NCBI GenBank assembly: GCA_011390575.1
Contig: JAABSE010000011.1
Coordinates: forward strand, 102 to 64,101
Direction: 5' to 3'
Length of the DNA: 64,000 nt
From: Sphingobacteriia bacterium
Lineage (GTDB): Bacteria; Bacteroidota; Bacteroidia; Bacteroidales; UBA7960
A model generated the notes under the pieces. The model worked only from the letters and a program-made list of their open reading frames with translations. It searched no databases and was not told the origin of the DNA. Positions 25,173 to 39,424 of this stretch are shown here, piece by piece. Position numbers and translations under genes: made by a program. Position 1 is the stretch's first letter. Each line of letters opens with the position of its first letter.

Positions 25173-26834
25173 TTAATCTTCCCTCAGGTCACTGCTTTCT
25201 TCGCGAATGGCCCTGAACTCAGTACCCTCTTCCCATTGAGGCCACTTTCTGCTGTTGGCTAATTCTTTTCCGGTATTGAAAAACAGCCAGAGATTCTGAT
25301 CCAGGCCTTTCCAGTCCCACATATCGTGAATGATGTCTTCCGTTGAATGGTACCTGCTTTCCTGATCTTCCAGTACCTGTTCTGCAAAACGTTCGTTTCG
25401 GCCTGAAAAATCGGTTCCACTGTTGGCATAAATCATAGGCACACCCTGTTTGACAAAGTTAAAATGGTCTGAACGGTAAAAATATCCTCTTTCCGGATAG
25501 CGCTCTCGTATCAGTACCCGGTTTTGCTTGTCAGCTTGTTGCTTCAAAATGTTTTGAAAATCAGTAGAACCATAACCGATAACCACGATATCACGGGTAG
25601 GACCATAAACGTTCAGCCCATCGATATTTATTCCTCCTGCTGTGGTTTCTAAAGGGAAAAGTGGGTTTAGTGAGTAGTATTGTGAGCCAATAAGTCCAGA
25701 TTCTTCGGCGGTAACAGCAATAAAAACCACCGTTCTTTCAGGGGCAGGATTCATTTGGGCAAATTTTTTGGCAATGACCATGATGGCAGCTGTCCCGGTA
25801 GCATTGTCTATGGCTCCGTTATAAATTCGTACTTCATCATCATCTGTAACCGTTTTGCCAAGGTGATCCCAGTGGGCCATATAGATGACCGTTTCATCAG
25901 GGTATTTGCTCCCTTTCACATAACCGGCAATGTTGGCTGATTCCGATTCAATGTAAGTAAGGTTGAAATTTACTGATGCTTTCAGGTCCAGGTCAATGGG
26001 TTCAAAATCCTGGTTGAGTGCCCTTTGTTTTAAGTCCTCCAACTCAAATCCTGCCAGTTCCATCAAGGCTTCGGCTGATTCTTTGTGGAGCCAGCCTTCC
26101 ACTTGTGCGGCGGGTTCTCCGTTGTTGCCTCCCATCTTATACTGCGGACCAGACCACGAGTTTTTTACCACATCCCAGCCATAACCGGCAGGACCTGTTT
26201 CGTGGATGATCAATACTCCTGCTGCTCCTTGCCGGGCGGCTTCCTCATATTTATAGGTCCACCTGCCGTAATAGGTCATCGCAAACCCGTTAAACAGGTT
26301 GTCATCCTTCAATTCGTATCCGGGATCGTTGACAAGCACAATCACCGTTTTGCCTTTCACATCAAGACCTTTATAGTCATTCCAGTTGTATTCGGGAGCT
26401 ACAATGCCATAGCCCGCAAAAACCAATTCGCTTTTGTCAAGATAAATACTGTCTGTAAGTTGAGAAGACCCAACCATCATTTGATCAAAATAGGAAAAGG
26501 ATAATTCGTTGATGGTGTCTGCAATGGTAAGGGCAGAAAAATTCCGTCCTGTTATTTCAACCAGGGGAACAGATTGTCTGAAGCTGCCGTTGTTGGCTGG
26601 TTTTAATCCCATTCTTCTGAATTCGGCTTCGATAAAAGCTTTGGTCTTTTTACCCCCGGGGGTGGTAGGAGCCCGTCCTTCAAAATTATCGGAAGATAAG
26701 GTTTCAACAAAATGTTTGTATCGGTCGCTGAAAACGGGAATTTCAACTTCCTCCCGGTTGTTGCATGCAGTAAAAATCAGTGCTAAGGTAAATGACAATA
26801 GCAATGTCGGAATAAATCTTCTTGAGAGGTTCAT
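25173..26834 (-). CDS. M28-family aminopeptidase lipoprotein with PA domain
   Basis: Start at the ATG at 26834 (MNLSRRFIPTLLLSFTLALIFTAC). Motifs are ...HWDHLG..., ...GAIDNATGTAAIM..., ...AVTAEESGLIGSQYY... and ...YHSTEDI... Confidence 0.85.
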   Translation of the reverse strand: MNLSRRFIPTLLLSFTLALIFTACNNREEVEIPVFSDRYKHFVETLSSDNFEGRAPTTPGGKKTKAFIEAEFRRMGLKPANNGSFRQSVPLVEITGRNFSALTIADTINELSFSYFDQMMVGSSQLTDSIYLDKSELVFAGYGIVAPEYNWNDYKGLDVKGKTVIVLVNDPGYELKDDNLFNGFAMTYYGRWTYKYEEAARQGAAGVLIIHETGPAGYGWDVVKNSWSGPQYKMGGNNGEPAAQVEGWLHKESAEALMELAGFELEDLKQRALNQDFEPIDLDLKASVNFNLTYIESESANIAGYVKGSKYPDETVIYMAHWDHLGKTVTDDDEVRIYNGAIDNATGTAAIMVIAKKFAQMNPAPERTVVFIAVTAEESGLIGSQYYSLNPLFPLETTAGGINIDGLNVYGPTRDIVVIGYGSTDFQNILKQQADKQNRVLIRERYPERGYFYRSDHFNFVKQGVPMIYANSGTDFSGRNERFAEQVLEDQESRYHSTEDIIHDMWDWKGLDQNLWLFFNTGKELANSRKWPQWEEGTEFRAIREESSDLRED

Positions 26835-26895
26835 AAACAGATATTTTGTTAACACAAAAGATAGAAACAAAAATACCCGGGTAATGTTGACCTGC

Positions 26896-27246
26896 TCATG
26901 AAATGAGTTGCATTGTGTCCGGTAATTTTGCGGCAGCCAGCTGGCTTAAGGGGATGGTTCGTCTGAGGTAGATGCTCCGGGTATCGTGCCAGGGCTGGAG
27001 TGCTCCTCGCTCAAAACGGGTGTCGTAACTGGGGTCGTTGAGTCTTTGACGCAACGGCACAGGTACAATGAGAGTATCTCCGGAGCTTTCTTCCGGCTTT
27101 TCTGTTTTTACGGGTGTTTTTTCGGGATTGTCAGCATACAGGTTGACCGGTGTGTAAGCCATCATGGCTGTGAAAACGATGATGGCTATCACAGAAAACT
27201 TTAAAACTCCAGATATTTGGGCTATAAATTTTTCCATTCCGGACAA
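26896..27246 (-). CDS. hypothetical single-pass membrane protein
   Basis: 116 aa with one TM helix (VLKFSVIAIIVFTAMMAY). It lies immediately upstream of the M28 gene on the same strand. Confidence 0.4.
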   Translation of the reverse strand: MSGMEKFIAQISGVLKFSVIAIIVFTAMMAYTPVNLYADNPEKTPVKTEKPEESSGDTLIVPVPLRQRLNDPSYDTRFERGALQPWHDTRSIYLRRTIPLSQLAAAKLPDTMQLIS

Positions 27247-27332
27247 TTGTTTTTTGTCGCACTTTGTACATTACAAATGTAATGATTTTTAGTAAAGTTT
27301 GCATATCAGAACATTAGAGATTTTTCCAAAAT

Positions 27333-27361
27333 AAAAAAGGGTGCCAGAAAAACCGGCACCC
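27333..27361 (-). terminator. intrinsic terminator of the 1160-aa gene
   Basis: Stem gggtgcc / ggcaccc (27339-27345 / 27355-27361). The A-run at 27333-27338 is a U-tract on the minus strand. Confidence 0.65.
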
Positions 27362-27382
27362 TTTAACTACTTCTTTAAACTC

Positions 27383-27418
27383 AAGCTTAGCCTTAGCCTA
27401 AGCCTCAGCCTAATCCTT
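27383..27418. repeat. hexanucleotide microsatellite (AGCCTN)x6 spanning the stop codon of the 1160-aa gene
   Basis: The sequence reads aagctt agcctt agccta agcctc agccta atcctt. The stop codon (27410-27412) lies in unit 5. Confidence 0.8.
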
Positions 27419-30400
27419 AAAAAGCGGGTCCGCACCAATAGTGCCCACCAGGTCTTCCAGGTATTCGGGCCGTTCCACTTTGGCAAGCTCAGCTTTGGCT
27501 CTGTCCAGTTTTTCTCCAAGATTAAGTTCGAGAGTAACCGGTTGGTTAACTTCACTGGACATAAACTCTTCCAGGTATCGGATGTGTTTTTTCCAGAGTG
27601 CAATATCTTTTTGCTGCTTCAGTTGGAGTCTTTCCTTGTACCAGTCGCTGTTGATGACATATTCTCTTGTAAACAATCCGCGGATTTCCGGATCATTGAT
27701 GTCCTTGTTGTTGTAATGTCCGTGTGCCATAATATGCAGCAGGGCTTTCAGCGGTGGTATTGCAGATTCTACGCTTCCATCAGCAAAATATTGCAAAGCC
27801 ACTTTTTGCTGTGCCTCACAGATATTTTTGATGCCATCCACAAAATCTTCCATGGACTGCATCTCAGGACGCAATACTTCTTTGGAGAAGATATTCATGG
27901 GTTCTTCAAATATTCTACCCAGGTATTTGAAGGCAAAAGCCTCGTTGATACGGTAGCCCAGGCGGCTGGCCAGAATTTTCTCTCCCTTGTGTTCAAAGTC
28001 GTCTATTTTGTCCAGCAAGCCTTCTTTGATGAGAAATTCTCCGGATTTCTCGTTGGCATCCAGTCGACACCATAACTCAGGGATGAGGATGCTAAGGTCG
28101 TGATCAAACCTGTATCTGGGGCCTATGTGACCGGCAGCACTTGAAAAAGCATTGTAGCCGGTAAGGATATAAGATACCAGAGCATTGTTAAGGTCTGTTG
28201 TGGGCACCAGCATATTGAAGGGGCCTTTGGTGAGGGCACCTTCGGAGCCTGCACCTGTAGTAGAAGGCGATTTGCCGGTAAGGCTGCACACAAAATCCAT
28301 AAATAATTCGGGCAGTTCCTGGTAATGGATGGGTGCATATACACTCAGAGGTCTGATTCCTTTCTTTTTATTAGAAGGGTTGTTGCGTCTGCCGGGCAAA
28401 ACATCGTTTACCGGGAACAAGGTCGGTTTGTCGAGAGGCACTTTTCGGGCAAAACGTACACCCACATGGGCCAGATAGCCATCTGCAGGGTTGTTAAACT
28501 CAGGTCTTGACTGCAGGTATCTTGGATTTTCAGAAATAGAACCATCAGCAAGCCGGCGGGGGTGAGAGGGCGAAATGAAATATACCCCGCTATCATCCTG
28601 TGCTCCATATTTAATCAGGTCTTTGATGGGTTGCGTGTATTTGTCAAACCCGATGGCTTCTTCAATAATTTCTTTCCCATCTTTTGCTGTCAGGGGCTGA
28701 TAATTGGTGGTAAAATTATTCATCTGCGACAGGTCGGCTTCAGCCTGTTTGTCATATCCACGGTTAATGGCTTCATCGGGCCGCTGGAAGAAGAGGTATT
28801 CACAGTTTTGTACAAACTTTACACTCTTGCGGGTAGAGCCCGGGCGTAAGTATTCCAGTTTGCTGGCCGGCAGGGTAAGGGTTGCAGAAATATCATCTTC
28901 CATCTGTACTTTCGCTGCTGCAATAAAGTCGGGACGCAATGAAAATACATTCCACGAACCATTCTCTTCATAACCAACCCTAAGGTAGGAAGTGCTGATT
29001 TTCCTGTTGTCAAACATCAGGGCGTGGCCCTTACGTCCGTTTACACGGTCAACAGAAAAATACTCATGCCAGTCCTTGTTCTGGTTACCCGAAGTAAGAC
29101 TAATACGCTTAATAAGCAATACCAGGGCTTTAACATGATCAGGTATATTTTTGAGGTATTTGTTGTAAGTAACGCTATATCCTCTGTAGGGGGTCAAAAG
29201 CTTGATGACGGAACCCAATGTTCGTTTGTTGTCAAGTAGTTTGCGCTTGTCAGAACCATGACGCGAGCGATCCTCCCAGCGGGTGCTGAAGTCATAATCA
29301 ATTACTTCCTGTGCTTTGGCAAAGTCTTTTTCAATATCATCAATAAAGAAGTTGCCATAAATAATTGCATTAAGCAATGATTTTGATATTTCAGATTTTC
29401 CCCCACCGGAAACGGTGCTGGGCTTGTGCAAAAAGCTTCCTTCTGCCTGGGTCACCACAAGGCGCCAATCCGGTGCAAAGGGGTGTTTTTCCATGTGCAC
29501 TTTAAATCCACAGGGCAGCACGTAATAATGGTTTTTCAGCAGATTGATTTGTCTTTCCTTTCCTTTGTAATCCCAGGAAACCGTGCTTTTATAAAGGTCA
29601 ATTCTGGCATTTTCGGGGACGTAAACCACCTCGGGCAATTGTTTGTCAATACCGTAATTTTCTTCCTTCAGGTGCATCATGGGTGCATAATGCTTTTTGA
29701 TATCCTCAAATGTGTAAGCATCGGGGAATCTTTCGGTTAAGACCTTTGCATCAAAATAGTTTCCCATATTTCTTCTGGAAAAGGCAAGTGCACCACCTGC
29801 ATGCTCCTCTTCACAATTACCGCTCAGGTTGGCTGCATAGGAAAGTTGGGTTTTTACTTCCTTCTTACTGTAACCAAAATAATTGTCGGCAATCAGGGTA
29901 ACCACCACACCGCTCTCGTCGCGGCAGGTAAGTTTAAAAGCTGTGCCATCGTTATAGTATTCATTTTCATCTTTCCAGCACATACCGTCTTTTCTCATCT
30001 TTTCACTTGCATCTTCCCAGTGTGGCAGTCCGATGTCTTTCTTTTTCATCTTAGTGAGATGGGGGGCAAGGATAACACAGCCGGTATGTCCCGACCAGTG
30101 CTCGGGGTCGAGTCCTGCATCGTTTTTGTGCAGATAGGGGTCTCCTGCATTGCCAAAAATGCTTTCTACAAAATCAAGGTTACTCACAAAAGCTCCGGGG
30201 GCAAAAAAGCGAAATTCAATGCTTTTCTGGGGCGAGTAATCTTTCACTTCAGGGCTTACCGTGGGGCGCAGCATAAGAGAAACAAATACTTTGGCCTTTT
30301 TTTCCTGTGAAGCAGTAAAAGGAAGAATCATGTAGTCTTCCGGTGGATTCAGGGCTGCATTAAGCAGATGGGCGAAAGCAATTTTGGGAACAGCCTTTTT

Positions 30401-30892
30401 GTCTTCAGGAATGGGCAGTCCCCCTTTTACAATATGAAACGACCCTTTGGTAGTGCGGCGGTCGCTGGCCGGATTGTGCAGAATGCCTTGGCGGATGCGG
30501 TAGGATTCGTAGTGGGGTGTACTGTAAGAATTTTTGTCGGGAGGAAGGCTTACTTCGCGTCCTATACCCGGCTTGTCAAGTACAAACGAGTCAAACGGTA
30601 TGCGAAGGTTTTTGTCGAATTCCACATCGCTCAGATAATTGTTGATGAAATTCTGGATGCGCTTGTCAACCGGGTTGATAACCTCTTTCGAGAGCAGGCG
30701 CATTTTTTCTTTATAATTGTTGAGAAGACTTTCGGCAAGGTTTACAAATTCCTGTTCTGTCATTCCGTCTTCCTGGATGTGGAGTTGCCCCTCAAAGATG
30801 GGTTGGCCCATGGATGCCAGTTTCATGTTAATATAGCGTATTACATCGCGACGGCGACGACCTGTAATAGGTTCTGTGGAATGATAGTTCAT
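27410..30892 (-). CDS. large cytosolic enzyme, candidate PPi-dependent phosphoenolpyruvate carboxykinase (PPi-PEPCK family)
   Basis: The uninterrupted 1160-aa ORF is certainly a gene. The function call rests on size (~130 kDa, as for the Entamoeba/Propionibacterium PPi-PEPCKs), a PEPCK kinase-1a-like loop VSGGGKSE (compare LSGTGKTT), the absence of motifs of other 1100-1200-aa enzymes (no Fe-S Cys clusters, no biotin/lipoyl site) and a central-metabolism neighbourhood. Confidence 0.4.
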   Translation of the reverse strand: MNYHSTEPITGRRRRDVIRYINMKLASMGQPIFEGQLHIQEDGMTEQEFVNLAESLLNNYKEKMRLLSKEVINPVDKRIQNFINNYLSDVEFDKNLRIPFDSFVLDKPGIGREVSLPPDKNSYSTPHYESYRIRQGILHNPASDRRTTKGSFHIVKGGLPIPEDKKAVPKIAFAHLLNAALNPPEDYMILPFTASQEKKAKVFVSLMLRPTVSPEVKDYSPQKSIEFRFFAPGAFVSNLDFVESIFGNAGDPYLHKNDAGLDPEHWSGHTGCVILAPHLTKMKKKDIGLPHWEDASEKMRKDGMCWKDENEYYNDGTAFKLTCRDESGVVVTLIADNYFGYSKKEVKTQLSYAANLSGNCEEEHAGGALAFSRRNMGNYFDAKVLTERFPDAYTFEDIKKHYAPMMHLKEENYGIDKQLPEVVYVPENARIDLYKSTVSWDYKGKERQINLLKNHYYVLPCGFKVHMEKHPFAPDWRLVVTQAEGSFLHKPSTVSGGGKSEISKSLLNAIIYGNFFIDDIEKDFAKAQEVIDYDFSTRWEDRSRHGSDKRKLLDNKRTLGSVIKLLTPYRGYSVTYNKYLKNIPDHVKALVLLIKRISLTSGNQNKDWHEYFSVDRVNGRKGHALMFDNRKISTSYLRVGYEENGSWNVFSLRPDFIAAAKVQMEDDISATLTLPASKLEYLRPGSTRKSVKFVQNCEYLFFQRPDEAINRGYDKQAEADLSQMNNFTTNYQPLTAKDGKEIIEEAIGFDKYTQPIKDLIKYGAQDDSGVYFISPSHPRRLADGSISENPRYLQSRPEFNNPADGYLAHVGVRFARKVPLDKPTLFPVNDVLPGRRNNPSNKKKGIRPLSVYAPIHYQELPELFMDFVCSLTGKSPSTTGAGSEGALTKGPFNMLVPTTDLNNALVSYILTGYNAFSSAAGHIGPRYRFDHDLSILIPELWCRLDANEKSGEFLIKEGLLDKIDDFEHKGEKILASRLGYRINEAFAFKYLGRIFEEPMNIFSKEVLRPEMQSMEDFVDGIKNICEAQQKVALQYFADGSVESAIPPLKALLHIMAHGHYNNKDINDPEIRGLFTREYVINSDWYKERLQLKQQKDIALWKKHIRYLEEFMSSEVNQPVTLELNLGEKLDRAKAELAKVERPEYLEDLVGTIGADPLFKD

Positions 30893-31213
30893 CTGAATAA
30901 CATTTTAAAGATTTGACATAATAAAACCCAATAACACTACACACAAAAATTGCACATACGATTTTGCCATTGCAAAACAGGATGCAGTTGTTGTGGTGTT
31001 GGTTTTACGTTATATTTTTTGATTGCCATCCGGGGCTTGTCCAAACCATTGTAAACCTTGGAGAGCATCGGCGAACACCTCCCATAATGCTGTCAGGCGG
31101 GCGGTATTGCCTGTGGTACAAAGATAAGAATATAAATGATTCAGAACGGGGCAGAGAGGGGGAAAACAGCATGCCAGATGCTGAAATATTTGAAAATCAG
31201 GATGACCTCAAAG

Positions 31214-31244
31214 CAAAAAAAGGCCATCCTGTGAAGGACAGCCT
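31214..31244 (-). terminator. probable intrinsic terminator of gdh (minus strand)
   Basis: Imperfect stem ggccatcct / ggacagcc (31222-31230 / 31236-31243). The A8 run at 31214-31221 is a U-tract on the minus strand. Confidence 0.45.
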
Positions 31245-31268
31245 TTTGAATGAAAATATTTACAGGAG

Positions 31269-32606
31269 TTATATAACGCCCTGGTCTATCATTGCATCAG
31301 CAACTTTGATAAAACCTGCAACGTTAGAACCTTTTACATAGTTTACAAATCCAGTCTCATCTTTTCCATGTTTAACACATGCTTCATGGATGTTGATCAT
31401 GATCTGGTGCAGTTTTTCTTCTACCTCTTCTGCAGTCCAGTTCAGTTTCATGGCGTTCTGGGTTTGTTCCAGACCTGAAGTGGCAACACCACCTGCGTTG
31501 GAAGCTTTTCCGGGGCCGTAAAGAATTTTGGCTTTCAGGAAAATCTCCATGGCTTCAGGAGTACAAGGCATGTTGGCACCTTCTGAAACGCACATTACAC
31601 CATTGTTAACCAAAGTTTGAGCATCTTCAGCGTTGAGCTCATTCTGGATAGCGCAAGGAAGGGCAACATCAACCTTCACTTCCCACGGGCGCTTTCCTTC
31701 GAAGAACTGAGCGTTGGGGAATTCATAGGTGTAAGGCTTAACAATGTCCTGGTTGGAAGCACGCAGCTCAAGCAGGTAATCAATCTTCTCGCCACTGATA
31801 CCATCGGGGTCATAAACGTATCCGTCAGGTCCGCTGATGGTAACTACTCTTGCTCCCAGTTGGGTAGCTTTGATGATAGAACCCCATGATACGTTACCGA
31901 AACCAGATACAGAAACAATTTTTCCTTTCATGGATTCACCGCGGGTTTTGAGCATTTCTTCAGCGAAATAAACATTGCCAAAACCGGTAGCTTCAGGACG
32001 AATCAATGATCCACCCCATCCACGACCTTTGCCGGTGAATACGCCATGATGTTCGCCTACAAGCTTTTTGTACATGCCAAACATATATCCAATCTCGCGG
32101 CCACCAACGCCGATATCTCCGGCAGGAATATCTCTGTCGGGTCCGACATATTTGTAAAGCTCAGCCATGAAAGCCTGGCAGAAACGCATGATTTCAGCGT
32201 TGGATTTTCCTTTGGGGTCAAAATCGCTACCACCTTTTGCACCACCCATAGGCAGGGTAGTAAGACTGTTTTTGAAAATCTGTTCGAAACCGAGGAACTT
32301 CAAACCACCTTCTGTAACACTGGGGTGGAAACGACAGCCCCCTTTGTAAGGTCCAATGGCATTGTTGAACTGCACGCGGTAACCTCTGTTTACCTGTACG
32401 TTACCTTTGTCGTCCATCCACTGAACTTTGAATTTGATAACTCTGTCGGGTTCAATAATTCTTTCTATGATGTTTGCAGCTTCATACTTCGGGTTTTCTT
32501 TCACTACGTCTTCAATAGTTTCCAAAACCTCTTTCACTGCCTGAAGGAACTCAGGTTGACCGGGATTTTTTTTCTCCAGGTCGGCCATAATTTTTTCCAA
32601 GTTCAT
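31269..32606 (-). CDS. gdh: glutamate dehydrogenase (hexameric 50-kDa class), paralog 1
   Basis: 445 aa. Active-site Lys region [17 protein letters not shown]. Dinucleotide fold VSGFGNVSWG...VVTISGPDGYVYDPDG. Confidence 0.95.
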   Translation of the reverse strand: MNLEKIMADLEKKNPGQPEFLQAVKEVLETIEDVVKENPKYEAANIIERIIEPDRVIKFKVQWMDDKGNVQVNRGYRVQFNNAIGPYKGGCRFHPSVTEGGLKFLGFEQIFKNSLTTLPMGGAKGGSDFDPKGKSNAEIMRFCQAFMAELYKYVGPDRDIPAGDIGVGGREIGYMFGMYKKLVGEHHGVFTGKGRGWGGSLIRPEATGFGNVYFAEEMLKTRGESMKGKIVSVSGFGNVSWGSIIKATQLGARVVTISGPDGYVYDPDGISGEKIDYLLELRASNQDIVKPYTYEFPNAQFFEGKRPWEVKVDVALPCAIQNELNAEDAQTLVNNGVMCVSEGANMPCTPEAMEIFLKAKILYGPGKASNAGGVATSGLEQTQNAMKLNWTAEEVEEKLHQIMINIHEACVKHGKDETGFVNYVKGSNVAGFIKVADAMIDQGVI

Positions 32607-32783: not shown

Positions 32784-35700
32784 TCAATTCAAAGGTTTGC
32801 AAACAATTCCCTTTTTCTTTCTACCGTCAATTTTTACAATTGCCGGTTGCGAAAAACGGATGTGCCGTACAAATTCATCCTCAAAAATTGCAGGTTGCTG
32901 GTTAAGAAATTTTACATCATAAAATCCCTCTTTGATAAAAGGGTTGATGGTAAAATATCCCACATTGAAAGATGTCAGATTCTGGAAGAAATGGGTTCCC
33001 TGGCTTGGGTCAATCTGAAAGTTCTTCAGACCTGCTTCAATAATGAGCCTGGCGGCAGAAATCTGCGACCATTTTACCGGTACTCCCAGCCATGGATCGC
33101 TGGAACCCCAGCGGCCCGGGCCAATAAGAATGTAGTTATCCTTGCGTTGGGTAAAACCGGTATTCAGCTTGTCAATGGTTTGAGCGATGGTTTTGGTATG
33201 GGCAGGGTCGAAAACATCCGGTTTTACATACACCACATCCTTCACATTGTCTACAATGCCATTGCCCAGTGCCTGTTCACTGTATATGATGGTTTCTTCT
33301 TCCTTGTGTTCTTCAAGGTCAATCTGATTTTTTTCCTGGGTTTCGACTACGGGCCGGATTTGCAGGAAATGAAATATCCGGGGTTGGTTTTCAGGCGTGT
33401 CAAGATTGACCGAGAACTCAATTTCCACCTGGTTGTTCATTTCCATCTGACCGATCTTCAGGATTTTTTGCAGAATTTCTGACAAAGGGAAGGAGTTGTA
33501 CTTGAGGATGTTGGAGAATGTAATGATCTTTTTTCCTCCTTCATAGATGCCATCGCGAATAATCTGGTCATGGTAGTCGAAGGTTGATGCAACAAATTTG
33601 AGGGCTTTGTCATTTTCTGCATGCTTGATGCGCAATTTGAGCAGGTTAATGGTTTCATCTACCGATGAGTGAAATTTCTCCGGGTCCAGGTCCAATGCAT
33701 AAAATTCTTTCTGGCTGTCGGTAAGTGCAAGCTCAGGCACCGAAAGTTGTAATACCTTTTGGGGATATTTGGGGCAGAACCTCATAGAAATTCCCCCTTC
33801 CACAATGGTTTTCCCCAGACCGAAAGCGATGTTGGCAATGCCATCTTCATATTTCTCGGGTTCTATAGGATAAAAATTGATAGAGCGTGCCACACCTGAT
33901 ATGGCAGGATAGAATCGGTTTCCATAGCTTCTGCCGGATATTTCCTGGATTACCACACCCATTTTTTCCTCATCAATCACATTGGAAGTGGCCGCAATGT
34001 AAGCTTTACTTTCTTTATAGAAAACAGAAGCATAAACGCTTTTGATGGCCTGTTCCAGCTGGAAGGTTCTTATTCGGTCATCGTGATGGTTGTTAGGAAT
34101 CATAAAAGTGGAATAGACCCCGGCAAAGGGCTGATAATGACTGTCTTCCAGTAAGCTGGAAGAGCGAACGGCAAGGGGGGATTTGATGGCTTCGCAAATT
34201 TCGGCAACATACTTGCGCATGCGCGAAGGAGTAATGGCATTGCTGAATTTCTCAATGACTTCTTCGTCGGAAACATCGGACAGTGCAAAATCATACAGGT
34301 TATTGTCCTCCATAAATTCATCAAAAAGGTCGGTAGTGAGCACAACGGTTCTGGGGATGGTTACCATGGCATCTTCCCAGTGAAACATCAGTTTGTATTT
34401 ATTAATGAAGGAGTCAATAAATGCCAGACCGCGGGCTTTGCCACCCAGCTGGCCGTCGCCCAGGCGGGTAAAGATAGCATATTCATCTATGTGGCTGGCG
34501 ATAATGCCTCGGCCCTTGGTTTTCCGGTAATTGGCAATGGTGTCAATCAGATAGCTCCTGATTTCTTCAATGTTGTTGAAATCATCCATGCTCTTCTGGG
34601 CAAATACATTGGCAATGGAAAACAAGGCCCTGGCCTTGAGCCAGCGGGAGAAGTGGTTGTTGGAAACATGATAAATGAGAGATTTGGAGTCTAGTCTGGA
34701 AATTTTTACCTGCAGCGAGTGCAGATTGTTGGCCCTGTCAATCTCCACATCTCTTTCGGGATCTCTGAACACAAAATCACCAAACCCATAGTTTTCCTTA
34801 ATGTAATGCTTGAGCTCCAGGAGCAGGGTTTGCGAATATTTATTGATGAAGTTTACGCCCAGTTCTTCCATCACAGCATAATCCCAGTCATCGGAAGATT
34901 GGAGCAAAACAGGCATTTTTGAGCCTTCATCTCTTATAAGCCGGGCCAGTTTGATGCCGGCTTCCTTGTCTTTTTCCCCATCTCTGTAATAAGATATGTC
35001 GGAAATGACCCCGAGCAGGTTATGTTTGTATTTATGGTACAATTCTACAGCATCATCAAAGGTTTTTGCCAGCAAAATCTTGGGTCGTGCCCGCATGCGA
35101 AGGGTTTTGCGGTGCTCGTTGAGCCCTTCGGTCATCAGTTCGTTGGTTTGTTCGAAAATTGCTTTGTAAATCGTGGGCAGGTACGAGGAATAGTAACGGA
35201 TAGAATCCTCCACCAGCAGTATGGCTTGCACTCCTTTTTGTTCTACATCATAATCGGCGTTCATCTTGTCTTCCAGGAGCTTGATGATGGCCAGCAACAA
35301 ACCGGGGTTGCCCAGCCAGCAAAATACGTAATCAATGGAACTCAGGTCCTCATTGGCCAGCTTCAGGGTTACCTCCCTTGAAAAATGGGTGAGTACCACA
35401 ATGGGAATATCCGTATAGCGTCGCTTTACCTTTTTGGCCATTTCAAAAGCATCTATCTTACCCACGTTGAGCATGGTAATCACCAGGTCAAACTTCTTCT
35501 TCTCCAGCAGCTCGAAGGCTTTTTCCGATGAGCTTGCCTGTGTGAACTGCGGAGGATAACGCAGGTTCTTGGAAGTGTACTCCAGGAAAATCTTTTCATT
35601 GATCCTGCCGTCTTCTTCCAGCATGAAAGCATCATAGTTGGAGCAGATGAGCAAAACATTGATGATTCGCTCCTGCATCAACTCCTGGTATGAAATTTCA

Positions 35701-35786
35701 TTGAACTCGTGCCTGTCGGTGGAGAAGAGTTCGTTGTATTTGTATTTTGACCGGGATTCTTTTAAGTGTGTTGTGTTATCTTCCAT
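32784..35786 (-). CDS. pseudo-receiver + receiver + PEP/pyruvate-binding-type (PPDK_N ATP-grasp) domain protein with an uncharacterised C-terminal domain
   Basis: 1000 aa. REC2 motifs are ILLVEDS...LLGVISDISY...PVLLQSS...FINK. ATP-grasp motifs are GGKARGLAF, LAVRSSSLLEDSHYQPFAGVYSTF, MGVVIQE, ISGVARSINFYP and EIEFSVNLD. The C-terminal domain has GPGRWGSSDPWLGVPVKWSQIS and DPSQGTHFFQNLTSFNVGYF. Confidence 0.8.
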   Translation of the reverse strand: MEDNTTHLKESRSKYKYNELFSTDRHEFNEISYQELMQERIINVLLICSNYDAFMLEEDGRINEKIFLEYTSKNLRYPPQFTQASSSEKAFELLEKKKFDLVITMLNVGKIDAFEMAKKVKRRYTDIPIVVLTHFSREVTLKLANEDLSSIDYVFCWLGNPGLLLAIIKLLEDKMNADYDVEQKGVQAILLVEDSIRYYSSYLPTIYKAIFEQTNELMTEGLNEHRKTLRMRARPKILLAKTFDDAVELYHKYKHNLLGVISDISYYRDGEKDKEAGIKLARLIRDEGSKMPVLLQSSDDWDYAVMEELGVNFINKYSQTLLLELKHYIKENYGFGDFVFRDPERDVEIDRANNLHSLQVKISRLDSKSLIYHVSNNHFSRWLKARALFSIANVFAQKSMDDFNNIEEIRSYLIDTIANYRKTKGRGIIASHIDEYAIFTRLGDGQLGGKARGLAFIDSFINKYKLMFHWEDAMVTIPRTVVLTTDLFDEFMEDNNLYDFALSDVSDEEVIEKFSNAITPSRMRKYVAEICEAIKSPLAVRSSSLLEDSHYQPFAGVYSTFMIPNNHHDDRIRTFQLEQAIKSVYASVFYKESKAYIAATSNVIDEEKMGVVIQEISGRSYGNRFYPAISGVARSINFYPIEPEKYEDGIANIAFGLGKTIVEGGISMRFCPKYPQKVLQLSVPELALTDSQKEFYALDLDPEKFHSSVDETINLLKLRIKHAENDKALKFVASTFDYHDQIIRDGIYEGGKKIITFSNILKYNSFPLSEILQKILKIGQMEMNNQVEIEFSVNLDTPENQPRIFHFLQIRPVVETQEKNQIDLEEHKEEETIIYSEQALGNGIVDNVKDVVYVKPDVFDPAHTKTIAQTIDKLNTGFTQRKDNYILIGPGRWGSSDPWLGVPVKWSQISAARLIIEAGLKNFQIDPSQGTHFFQNLTSFNVGYFTINPFIKEGFYDVKFLNQQPAIFEDEFVRHIRFSQPAIVKIDGRKKKGIVCKPLN

Positions 35787-35836
35787 TGAAAAAAAGCGTA
35801 TTGGAGTTTCTTACTAAGGTTTTTCTGCCTGTAATT

Positions 35837-38800
35837 TTATATTTGCTGTTTTTGCTTTTTTGATTCATCTTCTGCATCAGGTTCTTCTGCTTCGTTGTTG
35901 AAATAAATCAGGGAAGCCCTGTTTTTACCATCCATAATTATTTCCAGGGGTTTGTCAAACCTCACGTGACGGAAATAACGTGTGGTGTTGATGGTTTCGC
36001 ACTCTTCAAGCTTCTCCCAGTTGATGTAATCAATCAAGTCGTTGTGTTTTACTGAAAAGTACCCTACATTCATTGAAATTACATTGTGAAAGAAGTGTGA
36101 TCCCAGCGATGCATCCAGGGGAAAGTCTTCCATGCTTACTTCTACTATGATTTTTGCGTTGGAAATGTGCGACCATGCCACAGGGATTCCAATAAATCTG
36201 TCGCGGGTACCCCAGCGTCCAGGGCCCACGAGGATGTACTTCCTGTTTTCTTCAACCATTTTGCGGTTGAGCATCTCAATTTCGTCACGCATTTTTTCGG
36301 TTTTGAGCTTATCGAATTTTTCGGGATCAATGTAAATTACATCACAGATATCTTCAATGATGCCGTTGCCCATTCCGTTTTCAGAATACAGAAGCAGTCG
36401 TTCGTTGTCGATGACATCAAGATTAATTTCGTTGGTAATGATATTTTTAATCAGGGGCTTGATTTGCAACAGGTAAAACGAGGCCCTGCCTTCCTGATCT
36501 TTGTTCAAATCTACCGCAAATTCAATTTCAATAGGCGAACCCATGGCTTCTGAAACAATATCGAGAATTACCTCAATGGTTTTAGCCATAGGCATATAAT
36601 CATATTTGAGAATATTGGCAAAGTTAATCACCCTGGGCCCGGGCTGGGTTAAACCTGGGATGGTTCTCTCACTGGAATAATCGTAAACCGAAGCAGAATG
36701 TTTGATGGTGCCGTGTTTTTCTGCCTGCGATATTTCAAGTTTGCACAGTGCAGCGTCTTCCCCTTCCAGCAGGTTCATTTTTTTTCGGGCCATATCAATG
36801 GCGTAAAAGTGTAGTTGTGAATTTTTAAACAGATCCTTTGGGGTGTATATTTCCAATTGCGGATGTACCGGCGAAAAACGAAATGTCTTTTCTCCCTCCA
36901 CAACATATTTTCCCAGGCCCACAGCGGCCACAGCAAAACCTTCATCGGGCTTCATGTAGGAAAAAGGGTAGAAATTATAGGACTGTGCCACTCCACTGAT
37001 ATGTGGGTAGAAGTAATTTTCGTAAAGGTTTCCGGCTACCTCCTGAATGATTACAGCCATTTTTTCTTCTTCAATTTTGTAGTTTACCGCCTTGAAGTAA
37101 GATTGTGCTGTGGGGGAAAAGATGGACGCAAATACCAGTTTGATGGCATTCATGGTTTGTTTGAGGCGTTCGTTGGGATCGGGGTGGTTGTTGGGTAGCA
37201 GGAAGGTATCAAAAATGCCGGCAAAGGGTTGCATCAGCGAGTCTTCAAAAAGACTGGAAGAGCGTATGGCCAGCGGCCTGGTAATGAGAGAAAGATAAAC
37301 TTTCAGCCGCTTCACAAGGGTAGGGGATAAGTCACCTTCCACAAAGTGCTCTTTGATGATTTGATAGTCCTGCTCCTCGTATATTTTATCGTATAACTTG
37401 TTTCTCTGGATAAACTGCTCAAACTCTTCGGCACCGATAATGGAAGTTTTGGGAGCTCTGATGTTGATATCGGGTACAATTTCTTTAAAAGAAAAGTTGT
37501 TGATGAGCATATTGATGAAAGCAAGCCCTCTCCCTTTGCCTCCCAGCGAACCGGGTGCCAGGCTAACCACATTGGTTTCATCGAGCAACAGCGATTCTTC
37601 AAAATTTACAACCTTTCCTTTTTGTCGCTCCTGGATGCAACTTTCAATGATGTCAATCATGTATTTTCTTACTGCGCCCGGGCATTCAAAATCTTCCACT
37701 TTGAGCGGCTTAATCTTTTTGGCGATTTGTATTTCTCCCCGTGCCATGAGCCAGTGTGAGAAATGGTTCTTTCGGGCATGGTATATCAATGATTTTTCGG
37801 GTATGGAACGCAGGTGCGACTGAAACTCCTTCATCGAGCGTGCCACCGCAATCTCTTTGCGCCCCTCCTCATCTCTGTATACAAAGTTCCCAAAGCCCAG
37901 GTAATAATTGATAAAACTCTGCAAATCCTGTTTGAGGGTTTCGGAGTTTTTATTGATAAAAGTTGACTTGAGCAGGTAGGCATTTTGAGCATTTTCAATA
38001 TCCGAAGATTGCAACACAACAGGCAGGTCCGGCATTTGATCTCTTACATAGCTCACCAGGCTTAATCCGGCATGCTCATCCAGTTTTCCGTTTTTCTCAA
38101 ACTTTACATCTGATATAAGGCACAAAAGATTTTCTCGGTATTGGTCGAACAAGGTGAGGGCCTCAGCATAATTAGAAGCAAGAATAATCTTGGGCCTGAC
38201 GCGCATCTTCAACAGCTTATGGGTTTCATCGGAATTGACCTCTTCAATGAGTTGCTGGGTTTGCTCTATGACAATGGAGTAAAGAATGGGCAGATACCTT
38301 GAGTAATACTTTGCCGAATCTTCTACCAGCAATATTACTCTCACCATACCTATGCTTATGTCATTCTCTACATTCATGCGGTCTTCGATAAACTTAACCA
38401 TGGCAAGAAAAACGTTGGAATCTCCGTTCCAGACGAAAATTTTGTCAATGGAGCTGATGTTTTTGTTGCCATCTTCAAACATACCAATGTCACTGTTATT
38501 GTTGAGCAGCAAAAAAATCGGGAGGTTGTGGTATATCTGCTTAATGATACGGCTGAGTTGGATAGGGGTGTTTTTATCCACCCCCATCATTACAATGACC
38601 ATGTCAAAGTGCTTTTCCTGCAGTTTTTCCAGGGCTTCTTCGGGGGTGGATACCCCTGTTATGCGCGGTGCAGAAGATAAATTCAGCTGATAATATTCTC
38701 CTCTTACCTGTTCGAAGAACCGCCCTTCCTGTTCAATAATGTATGCGTCATAAAGATTGGCTACCAGGAGGATTTCCCTTACCTTATTGGGCATCAGGTC

Positions 38801-39424
38801 ATGGTAAATATCTCTGTCAGAGTGGTGCTTGATCAGGAATTTTTGCAACAACTGGCGGCTCATGGCTGCGTGTGTCCTTTCCGATTCGGGCTTTTCCTGA
38901 TCTTTCTGCATCGTACTTTTTTGCAGCAAATCTTTTCCGATAAAAGTATTGAGGTAACCCGAAATGAGCGAACTGAGGTTGTTGATCAAATCTCTTTCTT
39001 CCATCAGAAACGGGCCTTCGTCCTGTTGGGTATGTTCTTTCAGATAGAATACCTCAATGGAGCCCTCTTTTCCGTCAATGGTTTCAAAGGATTTTCGCTG
39101 GCACCAGGAGGTTTCCTTGAATTTGGCACTGCTGACAAACGAGTCTTTTCCATATTTGATTCGTGCAATGGCATCATCAGGGTATTGCCATGCAGCCGGA
39201 AGAATTTTGGCTATTTCGCCGAGCATTTCCACAATAGATGCACCTTCACGACGCAGTATATTGGTGGTTTTGTTAATGGCTCCCAGCTCCTTGAGTCTCT
39301 CCCGCTTTTCAGTCAGGATTTTCTCAATCTCTTCCTGGCTTATGGTAAACCGGGTCAGGTCTTGAGGATTAATATCTTTTGAAGTAGAATCTTCTTTGCC
39401 GGGAACAAAAGCACTGTCTTTCAT
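35837..39424 (-). CDS. paralog of the previous gene with an extra N-terminal sensor-like module
   Basis: 1195 aa. N-terminal module ...ILPAAWQYPDDAIARI...EGPFLMEERDLINNL... REC2 motifs are VILLVEDS...LLCLISDVKF...PVVLQSS...FINK. ATP-grasp motifs are GGKGRGLAF, LAIRSSSLFEDSLMQPFAGIFDTF, MAVIIQE, ISGVAQSYNFYP and EIEFAVDLN. The C-terminal domain has GPGRWGTRDRFIGIPVAWSHIS and DASLGSHFFHNVISMNVGYF. Confidence 0.8.
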   Translation of the reverse strand: MKDSAFVPGKEDSTSKDINPQDLTRFTISQEEIEKILTEKRERLKELGAINKTTNILRREGASIVEMLGEIAKILPAAWQYPDDAIARIKYGKDSFVSSAKFKETSWCQRKSFETIDGKEGSIEVFYLKEHTQQDEGPFLMEERDLINNLSSLISGYLNTFIGKDLLQKSTMQKDQEKPESERTHAAMSRQLLQKFLIKHHSDRDIYHDLMPNKVREILLVANLYDAYIIEQEGRFFEQVRGEYYQLNLSSAPRITGVSTPEEALEKLQEKHFDMVIVMMGVDKNTPIQLSRIIKQIYHNLPIFLLLNNNSDIGMFEDGNKNISSIDKIFVWNGDSNVFLAMVKFIEDRMNVENDISIGMVRVILLVEDSAKYYSRYLPILYSIVIEQTQQLIEEVNSDETHKLLKMRVRPKIILASNYAEALTLFDQYRENLLCLISDVKFEKNGKLDEHAGLSLVSYVRDQMPDLPVVLQSSDIENAQNAYLLKSTFINKNSETLKQDLQSFINYYLGFGNFVYRDEEGRKEIAVARSMKEFQSHLRSIPEKSLIYHARKNHFSHWLMARGEIQIAKKIKPLKVEDFECPGAVRKYMIDIIESCIQERQKGKVVNFEESLLLDETNVVSLAPGSLGGKGRGLAFINMLINNFSFKEIVPDINIRAPKTSIIGAEEFEQFIQRNKLYDKIYEEQDYQIIKEHFVEGDLSPTLVKRLKVYLSLITRPLAIRSSSLFEDSLMQPFAGIFDTFLLPNNHPDPNERLKQTMNAIKLVFASIFSPTAQSYFKAVNYKIEEEKMAVIIQEVAGNLYENYFYPHISGVAQSYNFYPFSYMKPDEGFAVAAVGLGKYVVEGEKTFRFSPVHPQLEIYTPKDLFKNSQLHFYAIDMARKKMNLLEGEDAALCKLEISQAEKHGTIKHSASVYDYSSERTIPGLTQPGPRVINFANILKYDYMPMAKTIEVILDIVSEAMGSPIEIEFAVDLNKDQEGRASFYLLQIKPLIKNIITNEINLDVIDNERLLLYSENGMGNGIIEDICDVIYIDPEKFDKLKTEKMRDEIEMLNRKMVEENRKYILVGPGRWGTRDRFIGIPVAWSHISNAKIIVEVSMEDFPLDASLGSHFFHNVISMNVGYFSVKHNDLIDYINWEKLEECETINTTRYFRHVRFDKPLEIIMDGKNRASLIYFNNEAEEPDAEDESKKQKQQI

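What the first reader, a model, noticed from the sequence alone, without database searches (positions are those of the whole stretch)
27410..30892. 1160-aa enzyme: candidate PPi-dependent PEP carboxykinase beside gdh
This is one uninterrupted 1160-aa cytosolic ORF with its own terminator. I recognise no standard large-enzyme motifs in it: no Fe-S clusters, no biotinyl/lipoyl Lys motif, and no Rossmann GxGxxG near the N-terminus. It does have a loop VSGGGKSE that parallels the PEPCK kinase-1a loop LSGTGKTT. The ~130-kDa size matches the rare PPi-type PEPCK family known from Entamoeba histolytica and Propionibacterium freudenreichii. If correct, the organism carries a PPi-linked anaplerotic or propionate/succinate-fermentation step encoded directly next to the GDH block.
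Basis: inference. Interest (0 to 1): 0.55.

Follow-up and report, generated by a model that had tools for sequence, protein, structure and literature searches.

The report
Ordinary pyrophosphate-dependent PEP carboxykinase gene

Summary
The ORF at 27410-30892 (minus strand; 1160 aa, 132.5 kDa) is real and has its own terminator.

**Family assignment**
- It matches both solved PPi-dependent PEPCK structures end to end: Actinomyces israelii 6K31 and Propionibacterium freudenreichii 8E1U, E = 0, about 1100 bits, 45% identity.
- It is 43% identical to the Entamoeba orthologue.
- An AlphaFold2 model (pLDDT 87.8) superposes on both crystal structures at TM 0.89-0.95.
- The next-best structural hits are all ATP- and GTP-PEPCKs.
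It lies in a strand-loop-helix and gives the best, though weak, profile alignment to the ATP-PEPCK P-loop.

**Why it looked orphan**
- The local Pfam and NCBIfam libraries have no model for it.
- Public sources already label relatives as "PPi-type PEP carboxykinase" or "PEP carboxykinase (diphosphate)".
- The family has more than 8000 sequence clusters in many phyla.

**Local points**
- The gene was found in 11 of 21 other species of the genus, all of which keep ATP-PEPCK.
- Where present in the genus, it lies directly downstream of gdh behind gdh's own terminator. It is not near gdh in 80 loci from other taxa.
- The genome also has PEPC, PPDK, two Na+-pyrophosphatases and a PPi-type PFK candidate.

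This scan has met the same family several times on other DNA. Verdict: already known, low interest.

The parts
27410..30892 (-). Coding sequence of the PPi-dependent PEP carboxykinase (1160 aa, 132.5 kDa)
   Evidence: ORF and translation. Full-length E = 0 matches to PDB 6K31 and 8E1U. Fold TM 0.89-0.95. Single copy in the genome.
29390..29413 (-). Codons for VSGGGKSE (residues 494-501), a P-loop-like phosphate-binding loop
   Evidence: S495, G498, K499 and E501 are invariant, and V494, G496 and S500 are at least 90% conserved, in 22 sequences down to 26% identity. In the model a strand at 486-490 is followed by a loop and then a helix from 501. The best hhalign local match is to GLSGTGKTT of ATP-PEPCK, E 0.011.
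29852..29881 (-). Codons for YFGYSKKEVK (residues 338-347), the counterpart of the YGGEMKKG motif of ATP-PEPCK. H364 follows 20 residues later.
   Evidence: Y338, G340, K343, K344 and H364 are invariant. They fall in the second hhalign local alignment to ATP-PEPCK, E 0.15, collinear with the P-loop match. Equivalence to the E. coli catalytic residues is inferred.
28214..28255 (-). Codons for GAGSEGALTKGPFN (residues 880-893), the most conserved block of the family and a candidate mobile active-site lid
   Evidence: E884, T888, K889 and F892 are invariant. Residues 881-890 are the only internal stretch of about 10 residues in the model with pLDDT below 50. The lid role is inference.
27336..27364 (-). 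Intrinsic-terminator-like hairpin after the gene
   Evidence: 12-bp stem, 7 G-C pairs, followed by TTTATTTT.
30893..31217 (-). Upstream intergenic region of about 325 nt that should hold the gene's own promoter
   Evidence: It lies between the gdh terminator and the ATG. No Rfam family matches here at E <= 1. The promoter was not located.
31218..31247 (-). Terminator-like hairpin of the upstream gdh gene, separating the two transcription units
   Evidence: 13-bp stem followed by TTTGCTTT.

Best explanation
The gene encodes a pyrophosphate-dependent PEP carboxykinase, also called PEP carboxytransphosphorylase (EC 4.1.1.38). The enzyme catalyses PEP + Pi + CO2 <-> oxaloacetate + PPi. It is built on the classical PEPCK fold with large insertions. 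A P-loop-like SGGGKSE holds the phosphate or pyrophosphate. A KK...H...DD set probably binds the catalytic metal, by analogy with K212/K213, H232 and D268/D269 of E. coli PckA (inferred). A conserved flexible loop (GAGSEGALTKGPFN) may close over the site (inferred). The gene is transcribed on its own. In this Bacteroidales bacterium it is an accessory third route at the PEP-oxaloacetate node, beside ATP-PEPCK and PEP carboxylase. Its most likely role is carboxylation of PEP to oxaloacetate for the fumarate/succinate/propionate branch. The energy of PEP would be stored in PPi, which PPDK, a PPi-type phosphofructokinase or the Na+-pumping pyrophosphatases could then use. The enzyme identity is shown by homology and fold. 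The direction and physiological role are inferred.
For: Identity: only two PDB hits, both PPi-PEPCKs, full length, E = 0, 1106 and 1102 bits. The Foldseek top 10 are all 6K31 or 8E1U chains at TM 0.88-0.95, 45% identity. Ranks 11-50 are ATP- then GTP-PEPCKs, E 7e-8 to 4e-4, target-normalised TM about 0.5-0.6. The model has pLDDT 87.8 and pTM 0.87. It is 43% identical to the Entamoeba dispar orthologue, whose 90%-identity cluster also holds an E. histolytica fragment and E. nuttalli proteins. Relatives carry PF26300 and the names 'PPi-type phosphoenolpyruvate carboxykinase' (UniRef) and 'phosphoenolpyruvate carboxykinase (diphosphate)' (JGI, 84% identical P0005). All 42 family-invariant columns are present in this protein. 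Own transcription unit: terminators on both sides. Role: the genome has PPDK (TIGR01828, 1267 bits), two Na+-translocating PPases, and a PFK with GGDDT/PKTMDND, the PPi-type signature known from the literature. It also has methylmalonyl-CoA mutase and a fumarate reductase/succinate dehydrogenase flavoprotein. PPi-PEPCK is reported to prefer carboxylation kinetically (McLeod & Holyoak 2021, 2023, as cited in PMC12547629). Two carriers outside the genus lack an intact ATP-PEPCK: none was found in G033, and G046 has two pieces missing the middle of the profile. That fits an overlapping function.
Against: No activity data exist for any Bacteroidota member. The catalytic-residue mapping rests on motif order and a statistically weak hhalign result (probability 3.8%), because the structural papers (Chiba 2019; McLeod & Holyoak 2023) could not be read here. 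The reaction is reversible, and in Methylotuvimicrobium extracts the enzyme is credited with malate -> OAA -> PEP (PMC6860931), so the direction in this organism is open. The genome also has a soluble family-I pyrophosphatase, which argues against a strictly PPi-conserving economy. ATP-PEPCK and PEPC are both present, and 10 of 21 congeners do without the gene, so its contribution is dispensable.
Confidence: 0.9

Rival explanations
1. Same enzyme, opposite physiological direction. It works cataplerotically or gluconeogenically (OAA + PPi -> PEP + Pi + CO2), draining C4 acids produced from glutamate and other amino acids via the neighbouring glutamate dehydrogenases. It would use waste PPi in place of ATP.
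For: The reaction is reversible, and the malate -> OAA -> PEP direction is proposed for a methanotroph (PMC6860931). The gene sits directly downstream of gdh in every genus member where both genes lie on one contig. An M28 aminopeptidase gene lies two genes downstream. PEP carboxylase and ATP-PEPCK already cover carboxylation.
Against: The gdh adjacency is absent from all 80 loci of other taxa, and the two genes are separated by a terminator and about 325 nt. A kinetic preference for carboxylation is reported for the family. No expression data are available.
Confidence: 0.3
2. A family member that has changed chemistry: a different phosphoryl donor or acceptor, or a non-catalytic regulatory paralogue, rather than a true PPi-PEPCK.
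For: Identity to characterised enzymes is only 43-45%. No Bacteroidota member has been assayed. The gene is accessory and coexists with two other PEP-carboxylating enzymes.
Against: Every invariant column of a 22-sequence alignment reaching 26% identity is retained, including the P-loop, KK, H and DD motifs. The gene is single copy. It aligns over its full length without domain loss or gain. Bacteroidales homologues form a smooth identity series from 91% to 56%, as expected of an orthologue under steady constraint.
Confidence: 0.05
3. A recently acquired foreign gene, inserted by horizontal transfer between gdh and the downstream genes, whose presence says little about the host's core metabolism.
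For: Presence/absence is patchy: 11 of 21 congeners, 12 of 36 in the family, 3 of 24 genomes from other families of the order. In G015 the flanking synteny is intact but the gene is missing. A 75%-identical copy is labelled as coming from a Planctomycetota MAG.
Against: Gene GC (45.6%) equals that of its neighbours (gdh 45.3%, M28 44.3%). No mobile-element genes are adjacent. The nearest homologues follow Bacteroidales taxonomy (genus, then Perlabentimonas, Williamwhitmania, Salinivirgaceae, Marinifilaceae). Divergence within the genus (77-91%) is in step with the neighbouring RR-PPDK_N genes (76-93%). Together these point to old residence with repeated loss.
Confidence: 0.1

Closest known systems
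PPi-dependent PEPCK of Propionibacterium freudenreichii (PEP carboxytransphosphorylase, EC 4.1.1.38; PDB 8E1U)
   Same: Full-length collinear match over residues 14-1158, 1102 bits, 45% identity, TM 0.91-0.95. Same size class (1131 vs 1160 aa). All shared motifs are kept, including SGGGKSE.
   Different: Different phylum (Bacteroidota vs Actinomycetota). Here it is an accessory gene coexisting with ATP-PEPCK and PEPC. Regulation such as the malate site seen in 8E1U was not examined.
PPi-PEPCK of Actinomyces israelii (AiPEPCK, PDB 6K31)
   Same: 1106 bits over residues 48-1156, 45% identity, TM 0.88-0.93.
   Different: The N-terminal 47 residues are not aligned. No biochemical data exist for the present protein.
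Entamoeba PPi-PEPCK, represented by the E. dispar orthologue P0124
   Same: 43% identity over 1108 columns, with the same motifs.
   Different: The review PMC8100219 states that Entamoeba histolytica has three paralogues and no other PEPCK. This genome has one copy plus ATP-PEPCK.
ATP-dependent PEPCK (PckA; PF01293, TIGR00224)
   Same: Shared core fold (Foldseek E 7e-8, target-normalised TM about 0.6). The same order of motifs, Y-G-x-x-KK, then H, then S-G-x-G-K-[ST], then DD. Same substrates, PEP and OAA.
   Different: No significant sequence similarity: no Pfam hit and hhalign probability 3.8%. About twice the size, with large insertions. The phosphoryl donor is PPi instead of ATP. The genome's real PckA is a separate gene on contig C198.

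Membership tests
PPi-dependent PEPCK (EC 4.1.1.38; PF26300-bearing family) | Significant full-length sequence similarity to the biochemically and structurally characterised members | tested here: met
   E = 0, 1106 and 1102 bits to 6K31 and 8E1U, covering residues 48-1156 and 14-1158. 43% identity to the Entamoeba-type orthologue.
PPi-dependent PEPCK (EC 4.1.1.38; PF26300-bearing family) | Single polypeptide of about 1100-1200 residues with the same fold | tested here: met
   1160 aa, 132.5 kDa. AF2 model pLDDT 87.8, TM 0.89-0.95 to both crystal structures over about 1150 columns.
PPi-dependent PEPCK (EC 4.1.1.38; PF26300-bearing family) | Retention of family-invariant residues (R146, K343/K344, H364, S495/G498/K499/E501, D666/D667, R704/D706, R791, E884/T888/K889, H931) | tested here: met
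   42 columns are invariant in a 22-sequence alignment reaching 26% identity, and all are present in this protein. That these are the catalytic residues is inferred, not read from the structure papers.
PPi-dependent PEPCK (EC 4.1.1.38; PF26300-bearing family) | Use of PPi/Pi, not ATP or GTP, in the PEP <-> OAA reaction | not testable with these tools
   Needs an enzyme assay.
PPi-dependent PEPCK (EC 4.1.1.38; PF26300-bearing family) | Homodimeric assembly (per Chiba 2019 as cited in PMC10441589) and inhibition by malate (PMC8100219; malate is bound in 8E1U) | not tested
   Only a monomer was modelled. The literature statements are, and the 8E1U entry title is.
ATP/GTP-dependent PEPCK (PF01293 / PF00821) | Match to the family profile above its threshold | tested here: not met
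   No Pfam or NCBIfam hit. The profile-profile comparison with 21 ATP-PEPCKs gave probability 3.8%. Only fold-level similarity was found. It is therefore related in fold but is not a member.

The most novel reading that the evidence does not exclude
The recurrent placement of PPi-PEPCK beside the GDH-linked receiver/PPDK_N ATP-grasp genes might reflect a regulatory or metabolic module. That module would couple glutamate/2-oxoglutarate status to the PEP-oxaloacetate node through PPi. The placements seen are: this genus; a Spirochaetia MAG where an RR-PPDK_N gene lies directly upstream on the same strand (L061); and another genome noted earlier in this scan (e1-980170).
Probability: 0.07. Interest if true: 0.45.

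Novelty: already known. Interest (0 to 1): 0.12.

Why it matters
The practical value is annotation. NCBI records mostly call this protein 'hypothetical', because NCBIfam and the local Pfam-A copy searched here have no model for it. Metabolic reconstructions of these Bacteroidales, probably from saline or alkaline habitats, would therefore miss a PPi-linked step at the PEP-oxaloacetate node. Recognising it adds a fourth PPi-handling activity to PPDK, the Na+-pyrophosphatases and the PFK candidate. It also shows that PPi-PEPCK is an optional supplement to ATP-PEPCK in this genus. It does not change what is known about the enzyme family.

Tried and rejected
- **Pfam-A and NCBIfam scans of the protein:** no hit. 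This reflects the libraries, not the protein, because the big protein database tags all relatives with PF26300.
- **Profile-profile alignment (hhalign) of the family against 21 Bacteroidota ATP-PEPCKs:** run to prove the P-loop equivalence. The right motifs align and are collinear, but the statistics are weak (E 0.011 and 0.15, probability below 4%). The equivalence stays an inference supported by fold similarity.
- **Reading Chiba et al. 2015 and 2019 for catalytic residues:** not held in the library by DOI or PMC id. McLeod & Holyoak 2023 was seen only as a citation in other papers.
- **The look-up of encoding contigs for synteny:** It was replaced by the genome search, the fetch from genomes and the search for related loci.
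- **Riboswitch or leader in the 325-nt upstream region:** Rfam found nothing at E <= 1.
- **Operon with gdh:** rejected because of the intervening terminator and because gdh is absent from all 80 loci of other taxa.
- **Replacement of ATP-PEPCK within the genus:** rejected, because pckA is present in 21 of 21 congeners.
- **Recent horizontal acquisition:** judged unlikely on composition and on the identity gradient.
Full report
**Observation**

The window holds one uninterrupted ORF at 27410-30892 on the minus strand, with an ATG start and 1160 codons.
- The product is 132.5 kDa with pI 6.9. Its longest hydrophobic run is 6 residues, so it is probably soluble.
- A strong terminator-like hairpin follows the stop at 27364-27336.
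- The motif VSGGGKSE is at residues 494-501.
- The local Pfam-A and NCBIfam libraries return nothing for the protein.
- The upstream neighbour (31269-32606, minus strand) is a glutamate dehydrogenase.

**Identity**

- phmmer against all PDB chain sequences returns exactly two hits. Both are pyrophosphate-dependent PEPCKs: Actinomyces israelii 6K31 (1106 bits, residues 48-1156) and Propionibacterium freudenreichii 8E1U (1102 bits, residues 14-1158), each at E = 0.
- An AlphaFold2 model built on a 22-sequence alignment has mean pLDDT 87.8 and pTM 0.87.
- Foldseek places all chains of 6K31 and 8E1U first, at TM 0.88-0.95 and 45% identity. Ranks 11-50 are ATP-PEPCKs, then GTP-PEPCKs (E 7e-8 to 4e-4).
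- A 50%-cluster representative (P0124) turned out to be the Entamoeba dispar protein. Its 90%-identity cluster also holds an E. histolytica fragment and E. nuttalli proteins. It is 43% identical to the query over 1108 columns.
- In the large protein collection, more than 8000 90%-identity clusters match, the scoring limit. The 120 listed all carry PF26300.
- Where a source gives a functional name rather than 'hypothetical protein', it is 'PPi-type phosphoenolpyruvate carboxykinase' (UniRef) or 'phosphoenolpyruvate carboxykinase (diphosphate)' (JGI). One JGI-named protein is 84% identical to this one.

The gene is therefore an ordinary orthologue of a characterised family (EC 4.1.1.38).

**Active-site features**

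In an alignment of 22 members reaching 26% identity, 42 columns are invariant. They fall into recognisable blocks:

| Block | Invariant residues |
|---|---|
| DRRTT | R146, T148 |
| YFGYxKKEVK | Y338, G340, K343, K344 |
| EEEH | H364 |
| VSGGGKSE | S495, G498, K499, E501 |
| EDDI | D666, D667 |
| QRPD | R704, D706 |
| NPRYLQ | N789, R791 |
| GAGSEGALTKGPFN | E884, T888, K889, F892 |
| DHD | H931 |

- The order R ... Y-G-x-x-KK ... H ... S-G-x-G-K-[ST] ... DD ... R is that of the catalytic residues of E. coli PckA. Those residues are named in the PDB mutant titles returned (R65, Y207, G209, K212, K213, S250, K254, D269). Large insertions separate the blocks here.
- A profile-profile comparison against 21 Bacteroidota ATP-PEPCKs gave, as its best local alignment, TVSGGGKSEISKS against GLSGTGKTTLSAD. 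Its second alignment includes NYFGYSKKEVK against the Y-GGE-KK block. Both are collinear, but both are statistically weak (E 0.011 and 0.15).
- In the model, the SGGGKSE loop lies between a strand (486-490) and a helix (from 501), the classical P-loop arrangement.
It is supported by fold, motif order and local geometry, not by sequence statistics.
- Residues 881-890, inside the most conserved block, are the only internal stretch of about 10 residues with pLDDT below 50. I suggest a mobile lid; this is inference.

**Transcription and neighbourhood**

- gdh ends with its own terminator-like hairpin at 31247-31218. About 325 nt then precede the ATG of the large gene. No Rfam family matches this spacer. 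The two genes are separate transcription units.
- In seven congeners where both genes are on one contig (G001, G002, G003, G006, G007, G012, G013), PPi-PEPCK lies directly downstream of gdh.
- In G015 (97% complete, no PPi-PEPCK found) the block gdh2 / RR-PPDK_N / RR-PPDK_N / gdh1 / orf116 / MobB-like / orf239 / HlyD / AcrB is preserved. Both PPi-PEPCK and the M28 peptidase gene are missing.
- In 80 loci from other taxa, no gdh lies within 6 kb of the gene. These taxa include Marinifilaceae, Prolixibacteraceae, Flavobacteriaceae, Spirochaetota, Methylococcales, Planctomycetota, Verrucomicrobiota and Bacillota.

The adjacency is a genus-level habit, not a conserved functional pairing.

**Distribution**

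- The gene was found in 16 of 61 genomes in all, the window's own included: 11 of 21 congeners, 12 of 36 genomes of the family, and 3 of 24 from other families of the order.
- ATP-PEPCK is in all 21 congeners. Within the genus, PPi-PEPCK is therefore an add-on and not a replacement.
- Two carriers outside the genus lack an intact pckA. None was found in G033 (96% complete). G046 has two fragments missing the middle of the profile. This hints at functional overlap.
- Gene GC equals that of the flanks. The identity series follows Bacteroidales taxonomy: genus 77-91%, Perlabentimonas 78%, Williamwhitmania 68%, Salinivirgaceae 66%, Marinifilaceae about 60%. I favour old residence with repeated loss over recent transfer.

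**Metabolic setting (own genome: 4.1 Mb, 198 contigs, 89.9% complete)**

| Enzyme | Result |
|---|---|
| ATP-PEPCK | TIGR00224, 822 bits |
| GTP-PEPCK | not found |
| PEP carboxylase | present |
| PPDK | TIGR01828, 1267 bits |
| PEP synthase | present |
| Pyruvate kinase | present |
| Phosphofructokinases | four PFK-family genes: one clear ATP-PfkA, and one with GGDDT/PKTMDND (the Asp/Lys signature known for PPi-PFKs) |
| Na+-translocating pyrophosphatases | two |
| Soluble pyrophosphatase | one |
| Methylmalonyl-CoA mutase | present |
| Fumarate reductase/succinate dehydrogenase flavoprotein | present |

This is the typical Bacteroidales succinate/propionate equipment plus a PPi economy.

**Mechanism and role**

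- Shown: the protein belongs to the PPi-PEPCK family and keeps all of its invariant residues.
- Inferred: it catalyses PEP + Pi + CO2 <-> OAA + PPi.
- The family is reported to favour carboxylation kinetically (McLeod & Holyoak 2021 and 2023, as cited in PMC12547629). The genome can use PPi in several ways.
- The most likely role is therefore PEP carboxylation feeding the reductive C4 branch, with the phosphoryl energy saved as PPi.
- The reverse, cataplerotic direction is a real alternative. It is proposed for a methanotroph (PMC6860931) and would fit amino-acid catabolism beside gdh. I put it at about 0.3.

**Comparison and verdict**

The protein is a plain member of a known family with two crystal structures. 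Public resources already label close relatives. This scan has reached the same conclusion on several other genomes. The local details are minor: accessory status, the genus-specific position next to gdh, and coexistence with ATP-PEPCK and PEPC. Novelty: already known. Interest: low.

Noticed in passing
L002:1429-3705 (own genome, contig C198): The genome's ATP-PEPCK is 759 aa. The PckA model ends at residue 547, and about 210 extra C-terminal residues follow with no Pfam match. Open frames of 760-800 aa recur across the whole family f1, whereas most other families of the order have 535-570 aa. This looks like a conserved, family-wide C-terminal extension of PckA with unknown function.
   Followed up: partly
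window 25173-30892 versus L013 (G015:C1): In a congener with otherwise identical gene order, two genes are missing: PPi-PEPCK (27410-30892) and the M28 peptidase (25173-26870). The small orf116 between them is retained. These look like two separate single-gene presence/absence differences in one 6-kb stretch.
   Followed up: partly
L061:1435-8294 (Spirochaetia MAG): A 1005-aa receiver + PPDK_N protein lies directly upstream of PPi-PEPCK on the same strand, with no gdh nearby. It is 40% identical to the window's two RR-PPDK_N genes at 32784-39424.
   Followed up: partly
G046:C22:17657-18612 and G033 (relatives): Two PPi-PEPCK carriers outside the genus lack an intact ATP-PEPCK. In G046 the gene matches only profile positions 2-171 and 318-464, in two frames. 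In G033 (96% complete) none was found. This may be replacement of pckA by the PPi enzyme.
   Followed up: no
L007:1327-2514 (own genome, contig C128): A 396-aa PFK-family protein carries GGDDT and PKTMDND, the Asp/Lys pair associated with PPi-dependent phosphofructokinases. It is below the cut-off of every NCBIfam PFK model.
   Followed up: partly
window 27386-27419: A hexanucleotide repeat (period 6, 5.7 copies, 82% matches) spans the last codons and the stop of the PPi-PEPCK gene, just before its terminator.
   Followed up: partly
P0025: A 75%-identical homologue is labelled 'Candidatus Brocadiae bacterium' (Planctomycetota). That is closer to the query than most Bacteroidales copies. It is either a binning error or a recent transfer out of Bacteroidales.
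   Followed up: no
window 27410-30892 (annotation libraries): The local Pfam-A copy and NCBIfam release 20 have no model that hits this family, although the precomputed table lists PF26300. NCBI records for relatives mostly read 'hypothetical protein'. The enzyme is systematically under-annotated.
   Followed up: yes
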